64,000 bases of DNA. It comes from Carcharhinus longimanus (lineage: Eukaryota). The notes beneath the pieces are model-generated. The model searched no databases. It saw only the letters and a list, made by a program, of their open reading frames with translations, and had not been told where the DNA came from. Of the stretch, positions 16,991 through 28,298 are shown piece by piece. Made by a program: the position numbers and the translations under genes. How positions within the stretch are numbered: the first letter of the stretch is position 1; each line of letters opens with the position of its first letter. Location: contig JASCQW010000027.1 in the NCBI GenBank assembly GCA_030264375.1, forward strand, positions 39,374,116 to 39,438,115. The letters are read 5' to 3'.

Positions 16991-18949
16991 TCAATTTCTC
17001 CTTGCTCTGGATGCCTCCACAGGTAAATTTGTTTTTGCATATCTGCAAATTAAATTTTTGCAACCTGTCCTCATAATTTAGCCTGTTTAAGGCTGATATC
17101 GCTGATTAAGTTTTAGCCTTTATTTCTCCCACCTCCTCCAATGAGTTATACTTTCACTGTACCTAACCACCCATCTCAAATCCAACCCAATCAGAATGGT
17201 TATTCTAAACGTAACAATTGCTTTTTCAAATGAATGACTTGTTTGGTCACTTCAGAGAGGATTAAGAGATATCCACAGCGTGGAGCTGAGTTACTATACA
17301 CCACAACAGAGTCTAGTTGACAGATTCAAACATGTGCTAATTTTTTTTAGAGAAGTACACTCTTTTTATATTTCTAAATTGCACAATTTTTAGAGGCATT
17401 TTTAATGTCAATACACTGGTGTCTATTGCATCACGTTGTGCTTTATTATTGGCCTACTCTATATATTTTGCTTAATTTTCCCCATTTTTGATTATTTAAT
17501 TTGTATTTTTATTGTTTTCAAAATGCCTAATATCTGAAAAGTTATTAGCTATCTGCCAATGAATTGTCTTTTATCTGCAGAAACATCCTTTCCAGCAGGG
17601 GTAACTGTGAGTTTTTTGTTCAGTTCTGTTAAAATCTTTGTCAGAAAGAATAAGGAATTGATCGAAGTATAGAAAACAGCAGGATATTGTGTCAGGCATA
17701 TGCTGAGTGAGCAGCCTGAAGGATCAGTGTTAGGGAAGTGATAATTCAAATTTTAATTGTCTTTCATTCAGAAGCTGAGTGCAAACTAGCCAAAATTGCA
17801 GATAACACCAAACAAGAAGAAGCAATTGACTCTAATGAGGTGGCCCAGGAACTATAGAATTATTTTAAAAATGCACAACAGGACAAGTCAATTGGCAGAT
17901 GACATTTAACATGGACAAATGTAAAGTCAGCACTTAGGAAAAAACAGGTACAAATTATTATATAATTGTTTGAAATAACTAAGGATGAATTAGGTCTGGA
18001 TAGACTTGATAATTTATGGTGCAAAATTTTATTCAACAAAAATCAGCTATGAACATGCTAGTATTGCATGCCCTACACTATTTTAAATTAGAATTAAAAC
18101 CTTAATTTTAAACAGAGAAATACATGCATAGAAAGCCCAGAAAGCGTAATAACATTAAGTGAATTTCACCTATCAATGAAGCAAATATAATGCTAACCTA
18201 TGTAGACAAAATAGTAGTCTCGACAGGGATACTGCAAAAAATAGTTGTCTGCTATGGTGAGGAATTTTCTGGCTGGATAAGGGAAGGGATGGATGGCCTT
18301 CCTTAAGTGTTTTTATCTTTTGTTCATTTGGCTGCCACAAATGTTAATAATCTGAATTTTACATTGAAATATTACATAAACGATATGGCACACAAACAGG
18401 ACAGTTAACCCAAACAGTCTATGCTGGTGTTTATGGTTCACACAAGTCATGAATATTGTCTACGGACTACCTACACCTTTTGTTTAAAAGAAAAAAGTAC
18501 GTGGAAACATAAAAAATAATCATTTGTAAACAAAAAAGATTTAATGCTGGCTGTCAGTTGAAAATTATCTAAACAATTCTAATTTCACAGTACATAGAAA
18601 ACAAATTCTATATGACCTTAAAGGAACATGTCTACTATATTGCTTATTTATAAAGGACTAATTGCAATCGTTAATTTTCAGAGTGCAAATGTGCTTCATT
18701 GATTTTCCATGGTAAAAGAGATTCCCCAGAACAGCTGCAATTGTAATTCAGTTGTTCACAATGAAAAAAGTGTCTTGTAATTTATGGAATATAACAGGGT
18801 GTGGAAGGGAATTTCCAGAAAGGGCAATCGCTACTGCATTTCTTATCAAGCTAACTTCTAGCAAGAATGTCAAAGCTGACAGCACTGGTAGTGTTTTCAT
18901 ATTTCTAACCGCCCTCCCCACCCTCAACACCATGGATTTTTTTTGGCAG

Positions 18950-20350
18950 GCGTTCAGGATAATGGTTGAGAATCGCTTCAGGGGCGAGAAGCTGGAGCAA
19001 GAGAGGTGTGGGGAAGGAAAGACGGTCAAATGTAAATACCACGCAAAACAGGTTGTCTCTGGCTGGCAGGCAGCTGCCGGCCCTGGGAACGCACGCGGCT
19101 TGGCGAACCTCGGAACAGTGATGGAGTTCGCCGCACGCGCTGCTCCCTTCCAGCCCCTCGTGCTTGTCGCCTACACCTGTTGGGGCAGCAACACCGTGCC
19201 TGCTCACCCGTTAGCGCGCATGCGGCACAGTCCGCACCCCTCAACACCCGCCACAATCCGCGCGTGCTGAACACATCGACGCACCCCATTCCCATCCACG
19301 CTGCCTCTCCGCTCCACAAACACGCGCATGCGAAACTCATCCCACTCAGGACACCCACGGTCCTCCCCCCCACGTCCTTCTCTACCTGCACCCCACAACC
19401 CGCGCATGCGAGATTCATCATCCCCACTACATCCGCCCCCCCCCCCCCCCAGCCCTGAGCCCAACCAACCTGGTTTATCTCTCCCTTTCTTACACTCCGC
19501 GCATGCGAGATTCTGAACTACTTCGACAACGTCTTCCCCCCCTCGCCCCGGGCCCGTGCTGCCGCCCCCACCTCACAAAATTCGCGCATGCGAGATTCTT
19601 AACTAGCTCGACACCACACCCCCTACCCAATCTGGCTTCCCTGCCCCATCCCTCCCCACAATGAGCGCGTGCGATATTCATGAGTCCTTCGATCATACCC
19701 TCCCCACCTAAACCGGGCTTCCTCTCTCCCCCGCCCCCCCCCCACCTCACCCCGCACCCCCCACCGGCCAGCGCGTGCAGTGGGGCGGGCGCGAGGGCGT
19801 TCCCGGGGAGAACCCGCCGCGATTTGAATCGAGAGGATTCCAGATGTGGGGCAGGTTTTGTGGAATAGGGAGCTGTAGTCAGTCACAACAAGTTACCACC
19901 AACAAATTCTTGAGGGGGATGGGGGTGTGGGTGGTGGGCTGAAAACAAAAAGTGTTACTTGGGATCAGAATCCCCACCCTCGTAACTCCCTCCCGTCGCA
20001 CCATTTTACTAGCTGCTTGAGCCCCACTTTCTCCCCCCTCCTCTAAAGGGGGAGGTGGTGGGAAAGGGGGAGGTGGAGGTGGGGTGGGAGGGGGGGAAAA
20101 CAGTGTCAATTTTTTTTCTCTGGCCGGTGCTGAGGAAAAAGCAGCGCTGACGGATCGACTCCCGCCCAATGGACACCTCCTTCGGGTACGTGTGAAAGCA
20201 ATGGTGTGGAGGCCGGGGGGGGTGGGGGGGCGACAGTTAGCGGCGTCACGTGGCTGCGGGTTTGGGGGGGTTGGTGGGAAAGGGGATGCCCACTCTTTCC
20301 CGGTTCATGGTGGGCATGCAAGGTGGGAAGGAGAGAGACACTCTAAATAA
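18950..20350. promoter_or_regulatory. CpG island / distal promoter-like region
   Basis: high GC and CpG density in an AT-rich background; NRF1-like motifs, GC box 19782-19789, TTTGAA 19823-19828. Confidence 0.75.
19215..19780 (+). repeat. degenerate ~80-105 bp tandem array with conserved CGCGCATGCGAGATTC core
   Basis: cores start at 19215, 19259, 19323, 19401, 19498, 19583, 19664 and 19770. Confidence 0.85.
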
Positions 20351-20467
20351 ACACACATCTCCCTCTCCCCCTCCCTACCCACTACCACCACCATTTTCCT
20401 CCCTCCATCCCACAGATGCCGGCTTTGGGCTGGGGTTGTTGGCACAGCGAGGAAGTCGCACAGCGAG

Positions 20468-20582
20468 GAAGTCTCACAGCACCCGCTTAAAGTCCCAACA
20501 TGTCTGATGAAGGAGCAGCGCTCCGCAAGCTCGTGCTACCAAATTAAACCTGTTGGACTTTAACCTGGCGCTGTGGGACTTC
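20468..20582. mobile_element. Penelope-derived hairpin fragment with hammerhead-like core
   Basis: inverted arms similar to 60081-60115; CTGATGA at 20504. Confidence 0.7.
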
Positions 20583-23279
20583 TGACTGTGCCCCACCCCC
20601 ACAGTGAGAGAGCAGACAGTGTGCGACGGGGTGGAGGGAATTTAATGGGTGATGTGGTTTGCACCATCGGGTTATTGAACTGCTCTTTCCAGCGGGCATT
20701 GGGGGTGGATGGGTGGGTTTTGTTTGACGTTTGTAGAGATCTGTGCATCTTCGTGTTTATTTGTTGATCGTTTACAGAGCCTTATTTATGTCGCGTGTAT
20801 GTATTTACCGTTCCAAGAGATTTATTTCCCTGTAAACAACCGGTTGGTTGAAGTTTGTGTTTTGTTTGCGCTAGTTGTTGACATGCCAGTGCCTGTGTCG
20901 AGATGCACCTTTGGGCATCGGGCATTTGTGACTGACCTGGACCCAAACAAAAAAAAGAAAAATGCTGCTGGAAATCCGATTTTGTTTTTAAACGAGAGAA
21001 AGAGGGAAAATGTTGAAAACCACTCAGCAGGTCAGGCAAGTGGAAAGAGAGAAAGGGAAAAAGTTAAGTTTTCAACTCCAAGACTTATTTTCTTTCATAA
21101 GGACCTGGAAGAAAATGAGAACTGCAACAATTTTCGTCCATTGGTGAAGTATTTATTTACTCATTAGCCCTGCCATTGTTTTTGACAACAATTTTTAATG
21201 CTTTAATCTCCAGAAGCCTGTTGAGTGTTGCTCCAGCATTTTCTGACCCTTTCATTGCAATCCATACTGGAGAAAGAAAAAGCTGTGACAAGAGAGGCAG
21301 GCAGTGACACTGCACCTGGTTAAAGTGACAGATCTGCCTTATTCAAGAAATGTAAACGTTGGATACTATGATATAAAGATTTTTTAAAGCCGCCTTTCCT
21401 GTAAATCAGCTTGGGAAACCTAAGACAGGGTGATTTTCAGAAAAAGAGCATCAGCTGACGGAAATGCAAAGTAACTGGATTATTTTGCACAGGTAAAGGA
21501 AAGGTGCAGATACCTGGAGAAAGGAATTGATGGGACAAATATTACTACTAAAGNNNNNNNNNNNNNNNNNNNNNNNNNNNNNNNNNNNNNNNNNNNNNNN
21601 NNNNNNNNNNNNNNNNNNNNNNNNNNNNNNNNNNNNNNNNNNNNNNNNNNNNNNNNNNNNNNNNNNNNNNNNNNNNNNNNNNNNNNNNNNNNNNNTTGGC
21701 ACGACCAAACAAAAAAAATGCAGGCCGGGACAAGTGTGTTCGTCGAATATTAAAAAATGTTAAAGTTGGTTGAAGGTTCAGAGTCTGCCAAGAACCTAAT
21801 GTGAAGTTATTTTCCCTTCTGAATTTAAGAAATGCAACAAAAAGAAGCCCTAACCAAAAAAGCAAGTGCAGCACGTTGCCACAAATTTTAAATTATAAAC
21901 GGAATGCCGAAGAGATTCCAAATGGTCCCAGACTCAACATGGATCTACACTGAGATATTGACATTTGAAGTAACAAAAAAAACTATTACCATAAATCCAG
22001 AGAAAATAACTTTCTGGGCTGAATTTTGCAGCAATAAATTACAAAGTGACAAGTTAACAGGTATTATAGATTCATGGCAATTAAAAATTAAATGCAAGTT
22101 TACCCGAATTAAGTTGTAAACGCAACAAATTACAGACCTTGCAATATTTTGTTTATTTAAGCATTAAATAGTACAGCATTAATCAGATGGAGTTAAGTAT
22201 ATGGGCAAAACATTTAGGAATTTTAGTTGTGGGGAGACTTAGTTATTTTGAATTTGGTTTAATCTGAAGTTTCTGCATATTCTCTGCAGTCCACCTGTGA
22301 GAAATATGACCCCAAAATCTTGTGTCAAGCGACTCCAAGTGCTTTATAGGTTTATTGTCCCGTTGTATTACACACGTGCCAGGAGTGTGCAGGAAAGAGG
22401 AAGTCTATCACTGCGATCCAAGATCCCAAATTACTGCTTTCACTAAATCTGTAAATCTATTGCTGTGGACAATACATCTAGAAATGTTGCTTTATAGGAT
22501 CTATAACATAAATGGAGATGTTAAGTTTTAATTATAGCAAAACATAACCTAGAATTTTAATCCATGTTTTTTGAATATCACAAGAATGTAGCAAACGTTT
22601 TTATAATTAAGCTTGAATTTCGGAAGCTGCATAGAGGAAAAATATACATTTTGCATTGTTGTTTTTAACACCGATACGTTTGCGAACAAAGGACCCTCGT
22701 TACTCCATATTTAGGTTTTATTGCAAAACTGCAGGTTGCGCCATCTATAGAATAAGCACTCGACTTTTCGTTCAGTCTAAAATGTGTCATATAATCACTT
22801 AAATGTGTAGCCTGACTTTCTTGTAGGTATAAATGTTCATAAAATCATATTTTCTAATAAACCATTTTGTACTCACTTCCAAGAAACAGTAACTGGGACA
22901 TAACTTCCCCCCCCTTCCACTTTTCCTCAAGCAACATTTCACTAATAATCAAACTGTTAAACAAATTTATTGGGTTGTACAACATCTCTGTTTGCGTCTG
23001 ACTTTCTCTCTGCGGGAGAAAGTAATTCTTTTAGAAACAATATGGTAATTGTATAGATTAGCTGCAGGGAACCCCGCGACTGGATGCTGCGAAAGAGCTG
23101 ACAGATGAAGGACAAAAGCACATTATCTTTACTTGTTTACTTTCTAAAACTCGTTGTGGGGGCGGGGGGGGGNNNNNNNNNNTGATTAGTGGGAAGCATG
23201 AACAATGTGGGGGGGGGGGGAGTTGTGGTACCGGACAGAGCGGGGATTGCAGGAAAAAGGCGGGTTTCACCGAGGACCG

Positions 23280-23479
23280 CCAAGTAGTACGCAGTGCGCC
23301 TGCGTACTACTTTGACTCTGCTTTGGGCGCGAGATTTGGCGGGAGGGGAGGGTCCAAGGGCTTTGTTTGTAGGAATCTGTGTTTACAGAGCGTACACTTT
23401 AATCTCAATTTGCTTCCTCCTCGTGTGAGTTTGGGTGATCACTTGCAGCGACACTTCTTCCGCACTCTGAGAGAGACTC
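23280..23479 (+). promoter_or_regulatory. MYB: MYB proximal promoter / 5' UTR
   Basis: E2F-like TTTGGCGGGA 23335-23344 and TGTTTAC 23380-23386; resembles the mammalian MYB TSS region (recalled); lies directly upstream of the ATG. Confidence 0.8.
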
Positions 23480-23502
23480 ATGGCTCGGCGGCCACGGAAT
23501 AG
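23480..23502 (+). CDS. MYB: c-Myb coding exon 1 (MARRPRNS)
   Basis: ATG GCT CGG CGG CCA CGG AAT AG|gtaac; matches the c-Myb N-terminus MARRPRHS; phase-2 donor. Confidence 0.93.
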
Positions 23503-25759
23503 GTAACAATTCTATGTTTTGGCTGCTGCCTAAATGAACAAAAGTGATTATTGCAGAAAGAGGAAGAACTTTCACTTGAAATTTTGTTAGCTTTATACTG
23601 GTTAGAGAAGACTTGCTGAGTAGCGAGCCAGAAGCTCGCTCCTGCTCGTACTTCACATAGCTAAATTATGAATGGATTCGCGTCCTTTTATGTCTACTAC
23701 GCGGAGTTTCTGCAATACACTTTCCAATCGTAATTGAAAAGCTGGTTACAATGGAGATTATATATATATATCGGTCGTTGAATTTAGTGTCCTAAATTAT
23801 GTGGGCATGCTGTAGAAAGCAGATTTAAAATGCAGAACTTTCATTCATATACGCAAGTTCTGAGTGGCAACAACAATCAGTCTTAAATTGAGAAGGGCAT
23901 TGCAGTATCTCGTAAGAATCCTCTGTACGGGCTGAAGAGATACACTTTACATGATATGTCTCCAAAATATTCACCTAAGTGGAGCTGCAACATTAATATT
24001 TTTGGTCTTTTCGCACGTTGTTCACATAGGAAATACTTGACTGTTCGTGTTTATATGTTATGTAGGTTCTCAGTTGCTATGTTCAGCACCCACTGAACTC
24101 CGCACGAGTATGAGACAAGTTATTGACGTAGCCGAATGCTTTCATGCATGAAAAGAAAATAAGTGTATCCAGTATTGAGCAATGAAGTAGATCACATATA
24201 TTGCTAGTACATGGGCTGTGGAATGACACGTGGATTTTAACTTGTTGCAAGTTGTGTGAAACTGCCGAACACAAGATCCTGACCCTAATTTTTCAACATA
24301 ATAAGGTGGTTCCTGGATGTGTCATGATATGATCTCGGCGAAGGCTGCTACCTAAGTTGTCAAAGTTATACGTAGCAGTGGCTGAAATTGCTAAGAGCTT
24401 TTTCTCCTATTTAATCAACATTTGTGGTCACAGAAAACTGAATATATCAGATGCGTTATCGAAATTAAAATGTGAATGAAATAGGGAACAGTGACACTAG
24501 CAAGTGTGTGGTGCACTACCAGAAGCCGCGCAAGGTCCTTTGTATGCTGAACGTATGGAAGTTCCATATGGCCGATCTACTCTTAAAAGAAACTAGTTTC
24601 CAATAGGATTCTTTCAAAATTTCAGGACTACCAAAAATACACAGAGTTATAGTATTACGGCAATTTTGTGGTTCTTTTGAATTTAGTGTAACAAGCATCT
24701 ACAGATTGCGAATTTGACTAGTTAGTCAAGAGGTCCAGTTGTCATACTTTAACCCATTAACTGCTGAGTTGGTGGTTTAATTTCCTCGCGTCTATGGGTC
24801 ACTAACAAAACTGTCTATAATCTGGATGTAGGGACATTATAACCACGATGCTGTGAACTCAGCAATACATATTTGATTTGTAAAAAGTTTGCCTTTCATT
24901 CTATTTTCAGTAACAGGTTGGTTTGATTTTTTTTCTACAAGCAATGTTGAATCAAATCATTTTCAGTTATATTTAAGCTATAGACACACTTGAATTTTAA
25001 ATATTTAAATTTCATTTGCCTATGACATTGAGCCTTGTAGACAGATACTAAGAAAATTAGTGTATTTATTTAAATTTAGGAATTGTTTTATTGTGTCCAA
25101 ATGAATATTGTCACCTCAAGCACTCTTAAGTCAGCAGTATACTAACTGGACTTCAGGAGTGCATCCTTACTGCAACAATGTGAATTCCTCTGCTTTCCTC
25201 GCTGAGTGAAACTGTCAATTATTGCTGAATTATAGACTATTGCTCTAAATACATATTGGCTAAGATGTGGATTGTGAGTACCCTAACACAGCCAATAGGA
25301 AGAGAAATACCTTCCATTAATTTAGGGTGAATTTGAACCCAGGTGAGAGAGTAGTTAATTGCATATTTCAGTTCCTGTCATCTTTGCTGTGTTTTTTGCT
25401 GTGGACCCATGCTAAGTTTAAATTGTCCAAATAACTTTCTAGAGCAAAGAAAGCACCTATGCAAGCAATAAGGTGTGTTCTGAACTTAAACATTGCGTAT
25501 AAACATCTCTCTCAGGCATTAAGGAAAATCAGTGACAAGGGCGTGGCCCTTGATGTTACAAGTTGATTCACAATCTCCAAAATAATGAGTTGACATTCCT
25601 GACCTGGTATCCAGACCAATGTTCAAGTGGGGCAGTTCTGTTGGTTCTTGTCCATACCACTAGATGGGGTGATGTGTTAGGTGAGAAAAAATGAAGAACA
25701 TTTTGAATCATATGCCTGTTGGAACAGTGCCTCCTGCAGGCTGAACTTAGAGAATCCTA

Positions 25760-27330
25760 CATTGCAGAAGGAAGCCATTCAGCCCCTCGAGTCTTCACCA
25801 ACCACACTCCCACCCAGGCNNNNNNNNNNNNNNNNNNNNNNNNNNNNNNNNNNNNNNNNNNNNNNNNNNNNNNNNNNNNNNNNNNNNNNNNNNNNNNNNN
25901 NNNNNNNNNNNNNNNNNNNNNNNNNNNNNNNNNNNNNNNNNNNNNNNNNNNNNNNNNNNNNNNNNNNNNNNNNNNNNNNNNNNNNNNNNNNNNNNNNNNN
26001 NNNNNNNNNNNNNNNNNNNNNNNNNNNNNNNNNNNNNNNNNNNNNNNNNNNNNNNNNNNNNNNNNNNNNNNNNNNNNNNNNNNNNNNNNNNNNNNNNNNN
26101 NNNNNNNNNNNNNNNNNNNNNNNNNNNNNNNNNNNNNNNNNNNNNNNNNNNNNNNNNNNNNNNNNNNNNNNNNNNNNNNNNNNNNNNNNNNNNNNNNNNN
26201 NNNNNNNNNNNNNNNNNNNNNNNNNNNNNNNNNNNNNNNNNNNNNNNNNNNNNNNNNNNNNNNNNNNNNNNNNNNNNNNNNNNNNNNNNNNNNNNNNNNN
26301 NNNNNNNNNNNNNNNNNNNNNNNNNNNNNNNNNNNNNNNNNNNNNNNNNNNNNNNNNNNNNNNNNNNNNNNNNNNNNNNNNNNNNNNNNNNNNNNNNNNN
26401 NNNNNNNNNNNNNNNNNNNNNNNNNNNNNNNNNNNNNNNNNNNNNNNNNNNNNNNNNNNNNNNNNNNNNNNNNNNNNNNNNNNNNNNNNNNNNNNNNAAA
26501 AAATTGCCCCTCTGGACACTTCTGTATCTCTCCCCTCTTACCTGAAACCTATGCCCTCTAGTTTTAGACTCCCCTACCTTTGGGAAAAGATTTTGCCTAT
26601 CTACCTTATCTGTGCCTCTATTATTATTTTATAGACCTCTATAAGGGCACCCCTCAGCTTCTTGCGCTCCAGAGCAAAAAGTCCCAATTTATTCAGCCTC
26701 TATAACTCAATCCATCAAGTCCAGGTAGCATCCTAGTAAATCTTTTCTGCACTCTTTCTAGTTTAATATATTTAAAGCTTTTAGTTAACTTATTTTCAGA
26801 AATTTTGAGCTAATTTCCCCTTTTTCTTTAGTTTTCCAATGGTATTAAATTTATGCAGTGCTCTCATCTATTGCTGGTCTAAAGCTTGGAGCTGAGAGTA
26901 CACAAATGTGACATTGAGTGATAACTCTGTTATATCCGTTTTTGAGGGAAACCCTGAACTAATCTTGCCTTTTCATAATGGCAGCATTGAACCCATAGAA
27001 ACATAGGAGCAGGAATATGCCATTCAGACCTTCAAGTCTCCTCCGCCATTCAATAAGATTATGCCTGATCTAATTGTGGTCTCAACTGCAGTTTTCTATC
27101 TATCCCCCATGAGCCTTAGCTCATGTCTATTAACAATCTGTCTAAATCTGCCTGAATAATTTCAATGACCTAGCCCCAGTGCTTTCTGGGGAAGAAAATT
27201 CCACATGCATTTGACCCTCAGAAAAAATCTCTTCATTTCAATCTAAAAAGGGAGGTGTCTTATTCTTAAACTACATTCTCTAGTTCCCACGAGTGGAAAC
27301 TTCCTGGTATCCTATCAAGTAGAATAGGAT
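25760..27330 (-). mobile_element. CR1-like 3' fragments in MYB intron 1 (largely gap)
   Basis: antisense CR1 3'-end text on both sides of the N run. Confidence 0.6.
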
Positions 27331-28180
27331 NNNNNNNNNNTGATAATAGAGGACATCACTGCTGAATCCAAATTATGACCTCATGTGACATCCATACATA
27401 CACACACCTATGTAAGTTATTAAAAGTCAAGAATAGGAACTTCATCCAAGTTAGATATTCTTCTCTCTACGTAACTATGGGTTCTGAGGTCAATTGGTGG
27501 TTCTTTCACTACCTCAGCCAAGGTCAGCTAACTCATTGGAGATCAGAGTTCTGACTTTGCCTGTATGGCTCAGCTGTGCATTATATGAAGGGTACATTTG
27601 CCTAATGCAGGAATTAAAAAAAGTCATAAATCTTATTTCTTTAGCACTGAAATTTTAAGTGGACAAAAACCTATTAATCTGTAATAAAACCACTTGTATT
27701 CTAGAATTATATGGTCAACTTATTAGGTATGATTGTAAAATATGCTAATGAAGCTTCTTGTGAATGGAAATATACTGCTAACTTAATGTTTTTACTGATC
27801 CATTAAGTGTCTTACACGTGTTAATTCTGAGCCATTCTCTCATTAATAGGATTATTTTGCTATTTGAGAGTATGTTTTAAGTGATCTGGCTATCAAAATA
27901 GAAGTAAACAATTAAAATAAGGATGCATTTAACTGTGAAGTAATTGGATTGTACTATTAACGATTTAATTGTAGTAACTCATGCTTTTCCAGACAGTACT
28001 GAAAAGGTTATTTGGAATATACTTGTGAATGCTCTACTGAACCTAAATATCTGATATTTCCAGATTTTGAATTTGAAAATACAGTAATTGTTTTCCTCTT
28101 TGTTCAACCGTGCAATTTTCTTTGAAAAGAATATGAAAAAAATTATTGCTGCTGAATTTTTAAAAGTATTTTGTTTGTAG

Positions 28181-28298
28181 TTTATACAGTAGTGATGAGG
28201 AAGAAGAAGAGATTGAAATGTTTGATCATGATTATGATGGTCCACAACCAAAGTCTTGTAAACGGCAATTAAGCAAAACCAGGTGGACACGTGAAGAG
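28181..28298 (+). CDS. MYB: c-Myb exon 2 (LYSSDEEEEEIEMFDHDYDGPQPKSCKRQLSKTRWTREE)
   Basis: tttgtag acceptor and gtatgt donor; 118 nt; acidic CK2-site region and start of R1. Confidence 0.97.

What the first reader, a model, noticed from the sequence alone, without database searches (positions are those of the whole stretch)
19215..19780. Periodic array of NRF1-like palindromes with divergent spacers upstream of MYB
Seen: CGCGCATGCGAGATTC is exact at 19401, 19498 and 19583, with variants at 19215, 19259, 19323, 19664 and 19770. Spacing is mostly 78-106 bp, and most cores are preceded by CACAA. The C-rich spacers share only weak similarity, while the CpG-rich cores stay intact. Known: GCGCATGCG is the core site of NRF1, which is methylation-sensitive. 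Inference: an old minisatellite whose motif is under selection, forming a homotypic binding platform about 4 kb from the MYB start. I do not recall this architecture at mammalian MYB.
Basis: partly seen in the sequence, partly recalled or inferred. Interest (0 to 1): 0.7.

Follow-up and report, generated by a model that had tools for sequence, protein, structure and literature searches.

The report
NRF1 repeats at second MYB promoter
Eight old tandem copies of a short DNA unit, each with a weak match to the binding site of the housekeeping activator NRF1, lie just in front of what is likely a second, upstream start of the shark blood-cell gene MYB, and similar arrays occur at 53 other places in this genome, so this is likely a common way that shark promoters grow rather than a device special to MYB.

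Summary
The array is real: 8 cores, and the 16-mer occurs 3 times, only here in the genome. It is not a remote element. It fills the left half of a CpG island whose right half holds a predicted in-frame alternative first exon of MYB (20169-20185). A RefSeq model from another shark starts with exactly that peptide, and two rays have related starts. No copy is a full NRF1 site. Across four related organisms the 16-mers are no better conserved than the spacers (12/64 vs 23/138 sites, p=0.69); only NRF1-contact bases look spared (post hoc P about 0.05). One organism lacks a unit. The architecture is common here: 54 loci, including the likely HBS1L promoter, carry periodic NRF1-core arrays with locus-specific units. 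Spacers are diverged at 40 of 52, against 1 of 10 for a control motif. Best reading: tandem duplication of an NRF1-bearing module in a CpG-island promoter, as known from human germline NRF1 clusters and TERRA promoters, here with 30-100 bp units. This scan noted similar arrays before in other genomes. Binding, methylation and transcription are untested.

The parts
18700..18929 (.). Conserved non-coding block left of the island (left edge not determined); likely enhancer
   Evidence: Organism C: 1 substitution in 230 bp vs 21 in 337 bp of the array, p=2e-4. KLF-, NF-kB-, GATA- and MEIS-like words seen in the sequence (motif names recalled). ORFs overlapping it have no Pfam hit.
18900..20300 (.). 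CpG island holding the array and the alternative exon
   Evidence: 200-bp bins: GC 0.55-0.66, CpG o/e 0.67-1.08, except one bin at 0.20; the two bins to the left have o/e 0.14 and 0.27
19090..19140 (.). Two further NRF1-like 8-mers (19090, 19132), possible outer units of the array
19215..19230 (+). Unit 1 core (9 of 10 NRF1 letters)
   Evidence: 4 variable sites among relatives
19259..19274 (+). Unit 2 core (degenerate)
   Evidence: 3 variable sites among relatives
19323..19338 (+). Unit 3 core
   Evidence: 4 variable sites; organisms E and F are closer to the array consensus at 19336
19401..19416 (+). Unit 4 core, exact 16-mer
   Evidence: 1 change (19404, a CpG transition) in organism C, none listed in D, E, F
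19498..19513 (+). Unit 5 core, exact 16-mer; unit absent in organism E, likely the youngest duplication (with unit 6)
   Evidence: 90% identical to unit 6 over 31 nt; joint 19441 to 19583 with 47 letters between in X13
19583..19598 (+). Unit 6 core, exact 16-mer
   Evidence: no change listed over 19583-19624 in organism E
19664..19679 (+). Unit 7 core
   Evidence: organism E has the consensus C at 19664
19770..19785 (+). Unit 8 core (degenerate), at the switch from C-rich to G-rich on the + strand
   Evidence: cumulative GC-skew minimum at 19765
19783..19830 (+). GC box, E2F-like word and CDE/CHR-like word; predicted start zone of the upstream transcript
   Evidence: motif positions 19783, 19800, 19823; motif names recalled; function inferred
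20169..20185 (+). Coding part of a predicted alternative first exon of MYB (MDTSF plus a split Gly codon, phase 2); donor GT at 20186
   Evidence: Predicted from sequence first (note), then found as the N-terminus of P0026 = XP_067882328.1; related N-termini in Mobula birostris and Narcine models
23480..23502 (+). Coding part of canonical MYB exon 1 (phase 2)
28181..28298 (+). MYB exon 2, common acceptor for both first exons
   Evidence: P0026 continues into this exon

Best explanation
The array is an old run of tandem duplications of a 45-105 bp module with one weak NRF1-like site per copy, lying directly in front of a predicted second, upstream first exon of shark MYB, where it likely helps keep that CpG-island promoter open through several low-affinity NRF1 sites. 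Shown: the duplications, one unit absent in a relative, single-copy status, the island, the in-frame exon and its match to an annotated shark isoform, and 53 other loci with the same architecture. Inferred: NRF1 binds the cores when they are unmethylated; the copies arose by the break-and-duplicate process reported at germline NRF1 sites; selection keeps several usable sites, not each 16-mer, so copies drift and turn over; transcription starts near 19770-19850 and splices 20185 to 28181.
For: (1) Single-copy array in a CpG island. (2) Duplication origin: S5-S6 spacer homology z=3.3; units 5 and 6 are 90% alike; organism E has one unit fewer. (3) Promoter position: the exon was predicted and then matched 6 of 6 residues by P0026, a protein 91.7% identical to the window in a test exon; related starts in 4 Mobula birostris models and 1 Narcine model; GC skew flips at the right end of the array. 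(4) Class: 41 loci for the 30-60 bp pattern against 11, 3 and 0 loci for three control motifs at the same spacing. 54 loci in all, with units unrelated between loci (30 compared) and homologous within loci (47 of 54). Diverged spacers around exact cores at 40 of 52 vs 1 of 10 control loci (p=1e-4). All 3 Pfam hits near arrays are domain starts pointing away from the array, 0.3-0.6 kb off; the likely HBS1L promoter has its own 4-unit array. (5) 5 of 7 changes in the first 10 core positions among relatives fall on the outer flank or the central letters; contact positions show 2 changes vs 6.4 expected (P=0.046, post hoc). (6) Known process: PMC8559717; NRF1 binds 2-mismatch sites in TERRA 29-bp repeats (PMC6600276).
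Against: No core is a full NRF1 site. The A after the 9-mer is the rarest choice in the class (8 of 172 cores) and matches a 10-mer with Kd 2.11 vs 0.31 uM (PMC10810270 Table 2, different flanks). The 16-mers are not better conserved than spacers (12/64 vs 23/138, p=0.69; units 4-7: 3 vs 6.7 expected, P=0.10). Two relatives carry changes in contact bases (19260 in D, 19404 in C). The array diverges faster than its left flank (D 7.1 vs 2.3%, E 8.0 vs 6.6%, F 9.4 vs 5.3%). 20 of 21 spacer pairs are not significantly alike. The exon rests on computed gene models: of 92 proteins held, 1 has this exact start, and the models give no genome position. The class was picked by requiring three exact cores; immediate flanks of control arrays were as CpG-rich as those of NRF1 arrays (p=0.35); only 3 of 38 loci screened gave a gene hit. 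NRF1 does not explain the conserved tail after the core in units 4-7.
Confidence: 0.6

Rival explanations
1. One reading: each core is under strong selection, and the array is a MYB-specific homotypic NRF1 platform whose copy number sets MYB output.
For: Units 4-6 share an exact 16-mer while their spacers share little. The array is kept in 4 of 4 relatives that cover it. All but one of the listed indels fall in spacers (lists cut at 12 rows). Contact positions are rarely changed. Unlisted differences probably lie in spacers, which would hide a core advantage.
Against: 16-mers are as variable as spacers. One relative lacks a whole unit. The sites are the weakest type in the class. 53 other loci have the architecture. 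The block that is strongly conserved is 18700-18929, not the array.
Confidence: 0.2
2. Neutral relic: mutation-driven duplication at a once-bound NRF1 site. The cores look conserved only because CpGs decay slowly in an unmethylated island while C-run spacers slip quickly; the array does nothing for the promoter now.
For: PMC8559717 (Discussion read) proposes that such clusters may arise as a neutral result of germline mutation. The array is at least as divergent as its flanks. Relatives differ by only 6-9%, so its presence in them is expected without selection. No perfect site is left.
Against: In the class, exact cores persist beside spacers of median 65% identity, which control-motif arrays almost never show (40/52 vs 1/10). 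At this locus, contact bases change less often than other core bases (2/28 vs 10/36, p=0.053).
Confidence: 0.2
3. The conserved unit is the whole 16-mer plus CACAA, read by a factor other than NRF1 (or NRF1 with a partner), or it acts as an RNA element in a divergent transcript that runs through the array on the - strand.
For: The tail after the 9-mer is near invariant in units 4-7. Its 8-letter junction recurs once in the canonical MYB promoter, at 23329, next to an E2F-like word. The - strand is G-rich over the array and has a consensus splice donor at 19207 (sequence).
Against: Tail positions 11-16 are more variable among relatives than the spacers in units 1-4 (6 of 24 sites). The 16-mer occurs nowhere else in the genome. 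No Rfam match above chance; no Pfam match in 8 ORFs.
Confidence: 0.1

Closest known systems
Homotypic NRF1 clusters made by tandem duplication at germline-bound sites (Kaiser et al. 2021, PMC8559717; abstract, passages and Discussion read)
   Same: NRF1 motif multiplied in place by tandem duplication in open, CpG-rich regulatory DNA
   Different: The human events are 5-20 bp insertions seen as rare variants; here units are 30-100 bp, 3-9 copies, old and fixed, with diverged spacers. Germline accessibility is not shown for sharks.
TERRA promoter 61-29-37 repeats with an NRF1 site in each 29-bp unit (PMC6600276; passages read)
   Same: Promoter CpG island built of tandem units, each with an imperfect NRF1 site; methylation-sensitive in that system
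   Different: TERRA repeats are subtelomeric and shared by about 20 chromosome ends; this array is single-copy, interstitial, degenerate and sits before a protein-coding exon.
NRF1 consensus site GCGCATGCGC (PMC10810270; passages and Table 2 rows read)
   Same: Up to 9 of 10 letters; one intact half-site; central letters vary
   Different: The last base is never C in this array. The matching single variant binds about 7-fold more weakly, and single half-site changes cut reporter activity about 3-fold in that paper.
Human MYB TSS1 and TSS2 (PMC7016764; passages read)
   Same: Alternative promoters change the MYB N-terminus ahead of exon 2
   Different: Human TSS2 is AT-rich, lies in intron 1 and truncates the protein by 20 residues. 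The shark exon lies 3.3 kb upstream of exon 1 in a CpG island and swaps 8 residues for 6, keeping the exon-2 serines.

Membership tests
NRF1 binding site | Two intact GCGC half-sites around a 2-bp centre | tested here: not met
   0 of 8 cores; the strict scan finds none in the window and 1 in the HBS1L island
NRF1 binding site | Near-consensus site (one mismatch) of a type with measured binding | tested here: met
   6 of 8 cores have the 9-mer; the 10-mer of units 3-6 has Kd 2.11 uM in PMC10810270 Table 2, with different flanks
NRF1 binding site | Unmethylated CpG-island context | tested here: inconclusive
   Composition fits (o/e 0.7-1.08 over the array); no methylation data
NRF1 binding site | Bound by NRF1 in vitro or in cells | not testable with these tools
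   needs EMSA or ChIP
Minisatellite / VNTR | Head-to-tail units homologous over their length | tested here: inconclusive
   Not reported by TRF; 1 of 21 spacer pairs significant, 4 more at p 0.06-0.09; cores in register
Minisatellite / VNTR | Copy number varies between lineages | tested here: met
   Organism E lacks one unit: 141 bases replaced by 47
Minisatellite / VNTR | Copy number polymorphic within the species | not tested
   both read-laying runs went to other organisms
Dispersed repeat or transposon family | Homologous copies elsewhere in the genome | tested here: not met
   16-mer 3 of 3 here; the 601-bp query finds only itself and one 38-bp C-run; no BLAST hit to 29 other array loci
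TERRA-type NRF1 repeat promoter | Subtelomeric, shared by many chromosome ends | tested here: not met
   at 39.4 Mb of a 123.7-Mb contig, single copy
Alternative first exon of MYB | ATG and consensus donor in phase with exon 2 | tested here: met
   phase 2, like exon 1
Alternative first exon of MYB | Annotated isoform with this N-terminus in another species | tested here: met
   P0026 exact; Mobula birostris (4 models) and Narcine (1) related; all are computed models
Alternative first exon of MYB | Mapped transcription start and spliced reads in this species | not testable with these tools
   needs raw RNA reads, CAGE or 5' RACE

The most novel reading that the evidence does not exclude
Shark CpG-island promoters are often built by repeated duplication of whole 30-100 bp NRF1-anchored modules, independently at dozens to hundreds of genes, with selection keeping the NRF1 sites while the rest of each module decays. 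At MYB such an array drives an undescribed upstream promoter and first exon that is shared by sharks and rays and may go back to the jawed-vertebrate ancestor (similar starts in coelacanth and gar models). These arrays would be a dated record of how homotypic clusters and CpG islands grow.
Probability: 0.35. Interest if true: 0.65.

Novelty: new variant of a known kind. Interest (0 to 1): 0.42.

Why it matters
Whether homotypic binding-site clusters are selected or are by-products of germline mutation is an open question (PMC8559717). Slowly evolving shark genomes keep the duplicated modules readable, so 54 or more independent arrays allow a direct core-versus-spacer test across ages and species. 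The locus also points to a second MYB promoter in cartilaginous fishes. The array at MYB is a weak, ordinary member of the class, so on its own it is of modest interest.

Tried and rejected
No RNA holder was listed among 22 runs; this says nothing about expression. Organism G (X19) did not cover the array and was dropped. Dispersed repeat family: rejected. Structured RNA: 2 chance-level Rfam matches, both outside the array. Coding repeat: frames differ between units, and 0 of 8 ORFs hit Pfam. HBS1L promoter as the identity of this island: rejected, because HBS1L exons lie about 98-102 kb to the left and it has its own island 90 kb left of the array; its exon 1 was not found and may lie in the N block beside that island. 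TRF found no array. Gene search near other arrays: 150 of 957 candidate ORFs from 38 of 54 loci were scanned, 147 without a hit. The base tally at the end used a faulty microsatellite filter and was replaced. A search for extra units by flank similarity alone found 115 units (80 in the exact-core chains, 35 outside); read by eye most of the 35 differ from the core by 0-1 letters, but no formal tally was made, so an unbiased core-decay rate for the class remains open. No look-alike notes in other genomes. Paper searches listed nothing on NRF1 repeat arrays in sharks or on an upstream MYB exon; I saw those listings only, and read no supplements.

Full report
Observation. The 16-mer is exact three times and occurs nowhere else in the genome search. 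The 9-mer occurs 6 times in the window against 0 in 100 shuffles. Spacings are 44, 64, 78, 97, 85, 81 and 106 bp, and CACAA precedes 5 of 8 cores. A DNA search with the whole array finds only itself and a 38-bp C-run, so it is not a dispersed repeat. Two more NRF1-like 8-mers lie at 19090 and 19132.

Origin. Tandem Repeats Finder misses the array. With the 16-mers removed, 1 of 21 spacer pairs is alike beyond shuffles (S5-S6, z=3.3), and four more are marginal. Units 5 and 6 are 90% alike over 31 nt. One contig of organism E joins 19441 to 19583 with 47 other letters, a net loss of one unit. The array therefore grew or shrank by whole units: an old, degenerate minisatellite (shown for units 5 and 6, inferred for the rest).

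The NRF1 match is weak. NRF1 binds two GCGC half-sites (PMC10810270, passages and Table 2 rows read). No core here has both; six have 9 of 10 letters. Read on the - strand, the 10-mer of units 3-6 is the single variant measured at Kd 2.11 uM against 0.31 for the consensus, in different flanks. Among 172 cores in 35 old arrays of this genome the base at that position is C 68, T 59, G 28 and A 8 times (9 unassigned), and this array has A.

Contigs of four other organisms cover units 1-4; organism G did not cover the array and was dropped. Distinct changes: 12 in 64 core sites and 23 in 138 spacer sites (p=0.69). Units 4-7 show 3 changes against 6.7 expected (P=0.10). The seven NRF1-contact positions show 2 against 6.4 expected (P=0.046, post hoc). 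Five of the seven changes in the first ten core positions hit the outer flank or the central letters. The lists are incomplete: 40 of 71 differences for C, 12 of 22 for D, 20 of 26 for E and 13 of 25 for F; the unlisted ones for D, E and F probably lie in C-runs and at contig ends, which would understate spacer change. By whole-piece counts the array diverges faster than its left flank in D, E and F. The strongly conserved block is 18700-18929 (1 change in 230 bp in C, p=2e-4 against the array). So the 16-mer is not a conserved unit; constraint on the contact bases is possible but not established.

What the island is. The array fills the left, C-rich half of a CpG island; cumulative GC skew turns at 19765 and the + strand is G-rich to about 20340. 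From general knowledge of CpG-island promoters this marks a start site near the turn (inference). In the right half I noted an ATG at 20169 with a consensus donor at 20186, in the same phase as MYB exon 1, and predicted an N-terminus. A protein search with a MYB exon and two cluster look-ups then gave 92 proteins. P0026, a RefSeq model of Heterodontus francisci, begins with exactly the predicted residues and runs on into exon 2; it is 91.7% identical to the window in the test exon. Four Mobula birostris models and one Narcine model have related starts; coelacanth and gar models have weakly similar ones, whose homology is uncertain. Only 15 of 35 members of the main shark cluster were listed. 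These are computed models without genome positions here, but an exact match to a prior prediction makes an upstream promoter likely. The array then lies 0.4-0.95 kb before this ATG. Human MYB's described second promoter is different: it is inside intron 1 (PMC7016764, passages read).

The architecture is common in this genome. The island 90 kb to the left, 8 kb upstream of an HBS1L exon on the - strand and likely its promoter, has four units of about 50 bp, each with an NRF1-like core. Searches for three cores at 60-90 or 30-60 bp gaps gave 39 and 78 matches (reversed controls 3 and 13), which merge into 25 and 41 loci, 54 in all; counts are lower bounds. Three control motifs at the 30-60 spacing gave 11, 3 and 0 loci. 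The 30 loci compared first have CpG-rich centres, mostly in CpG-poor flanks; the 11 BLAST hits between them are short (23-114 bp) and lie mostly towards the edges of the 800-bp pieces. Within loci, spacers are homologous at 47 of 54 (best pair, z>3). Spacer identity is below 80% at 40 of 52 NRF1 loci but at 1 of 10 loci of the first control motif (p=1e-4). Young arrays are about equally frequent for both motifs (12 and 9), so it is old arrays with intact cores that are NRF1-specific. A few of the 54 are microsatellite-derived. The selection of loci required three exact cores, and an unbiased decay rate was not computed. Of 38 loci screened (150 of 957 ORFs), 3 gave Pfam hits: Filament, CAMSAP CH and Vps26. 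Each is the start of the domain, reading away from the array, 0.3-0.6 kb off.

Mechanism. Most likely (0.6): NRF1-bound, open CpG-island DNA in the germline is prone to breakage and local duplication; a module with one site was copied several times; spacers decayed by substitution and C-run slippage; several weak sites now add up to help keep the upstream MYB promoter unmethylated and active, with selection on the sum and not on each copy. Duplication, position and class are shown; binding, methylation state and effect are inferred. Rivals: strong selection on each core (0.2), neutral relic (0.2), another factor or an RNA element (0.1).

Comparison with what is known. Kaiser et al. (PMC8559717; abstract, passages and Discussion read) show that germline NRF1 sites gain 5-20 bp tandem duplications that copy the motif, and suggest that clusters may be neutral. 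TERRA promoters carry an imperfect, methylation-sensitive NRF1 site in each 29-bp repeat (PMC6600276, passages read). The array works like these but is a member of neither: its units are longer, older and single-locus. Seven searches listed no paper on such arrays in sharks or on an upstream MYB exon; the library lacks most subscription papers and I read no supplements. Earlier notes of this scan report NRF1 repeat promoters in an arthropod and another vertebrate (unchecked).

Verdict. Real; a new variant of a known kind. The MYB array is a weak member of a genome-wide class. The class and the second MYB first exon are the parts worth following. Interest 0.42.

Noticed in passing
window 18700-18929: Strongly conserved non-coding block (1 change in 230 bp in organism C, and that one shared by all four relatives) with KLF-, NF-kB-, GATA- and MEIS-like words (names recalled); candidate blood-lineage enhancer of MYB. 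Left edge unknown.
   Followed up: partly
L050 / G000:C27:39303670-39303870: Likely HBS1L promoter has its own 4-unit array (46, 49, 52 bp) with NRF1-like cores, one a perfect 10-mer, next to a 555-base N block.
   Followed up: partly
window 19813-19829: CDE/CHR-like word at the GC-skew switch; would suggest cell-cycle control of the upstream MYB promoter (motif name recalled).
   Followed up: no
window 19202-19209 (- strand): Consensus splice donor just left of unit 1; a divergent transcript through the array is possible.
   Followed up: no
window 23284-23312: Inverted repeat of about 29 bp around an NRF1-like word in the canonical MYB promoter, just before an E2F-like word at about 23335.
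   Followed up: no
L098, L099, L101, L043, L104: Several arrays, three of them on contig C191, pair the NRF1-like core with a YY1-like word in each unit; possibly a family of related promoters (seen in the matched text).
   Followed up: no
L020, L045, L089: Arrays directly upstream of the first coding stretch of an intermediate-filament gene, a VPS26 gene and a CAMSAP gene.
   Followed up: partly
P0007, P0010, P0006, P0022, P0039, P0091: Several fish MYB models have other alternative N-termini spliced to exon 2; the coelacanth and gar starts weakly resemble the window's upstream exon.
   Followed up: partly
window 20442-20480: Young 16-bp tandem repeat (2.4 copies) in the right part of the island; abundant junk matches in relatives at 20469-20500 suggest a common repeat edge.
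   Followed up: no
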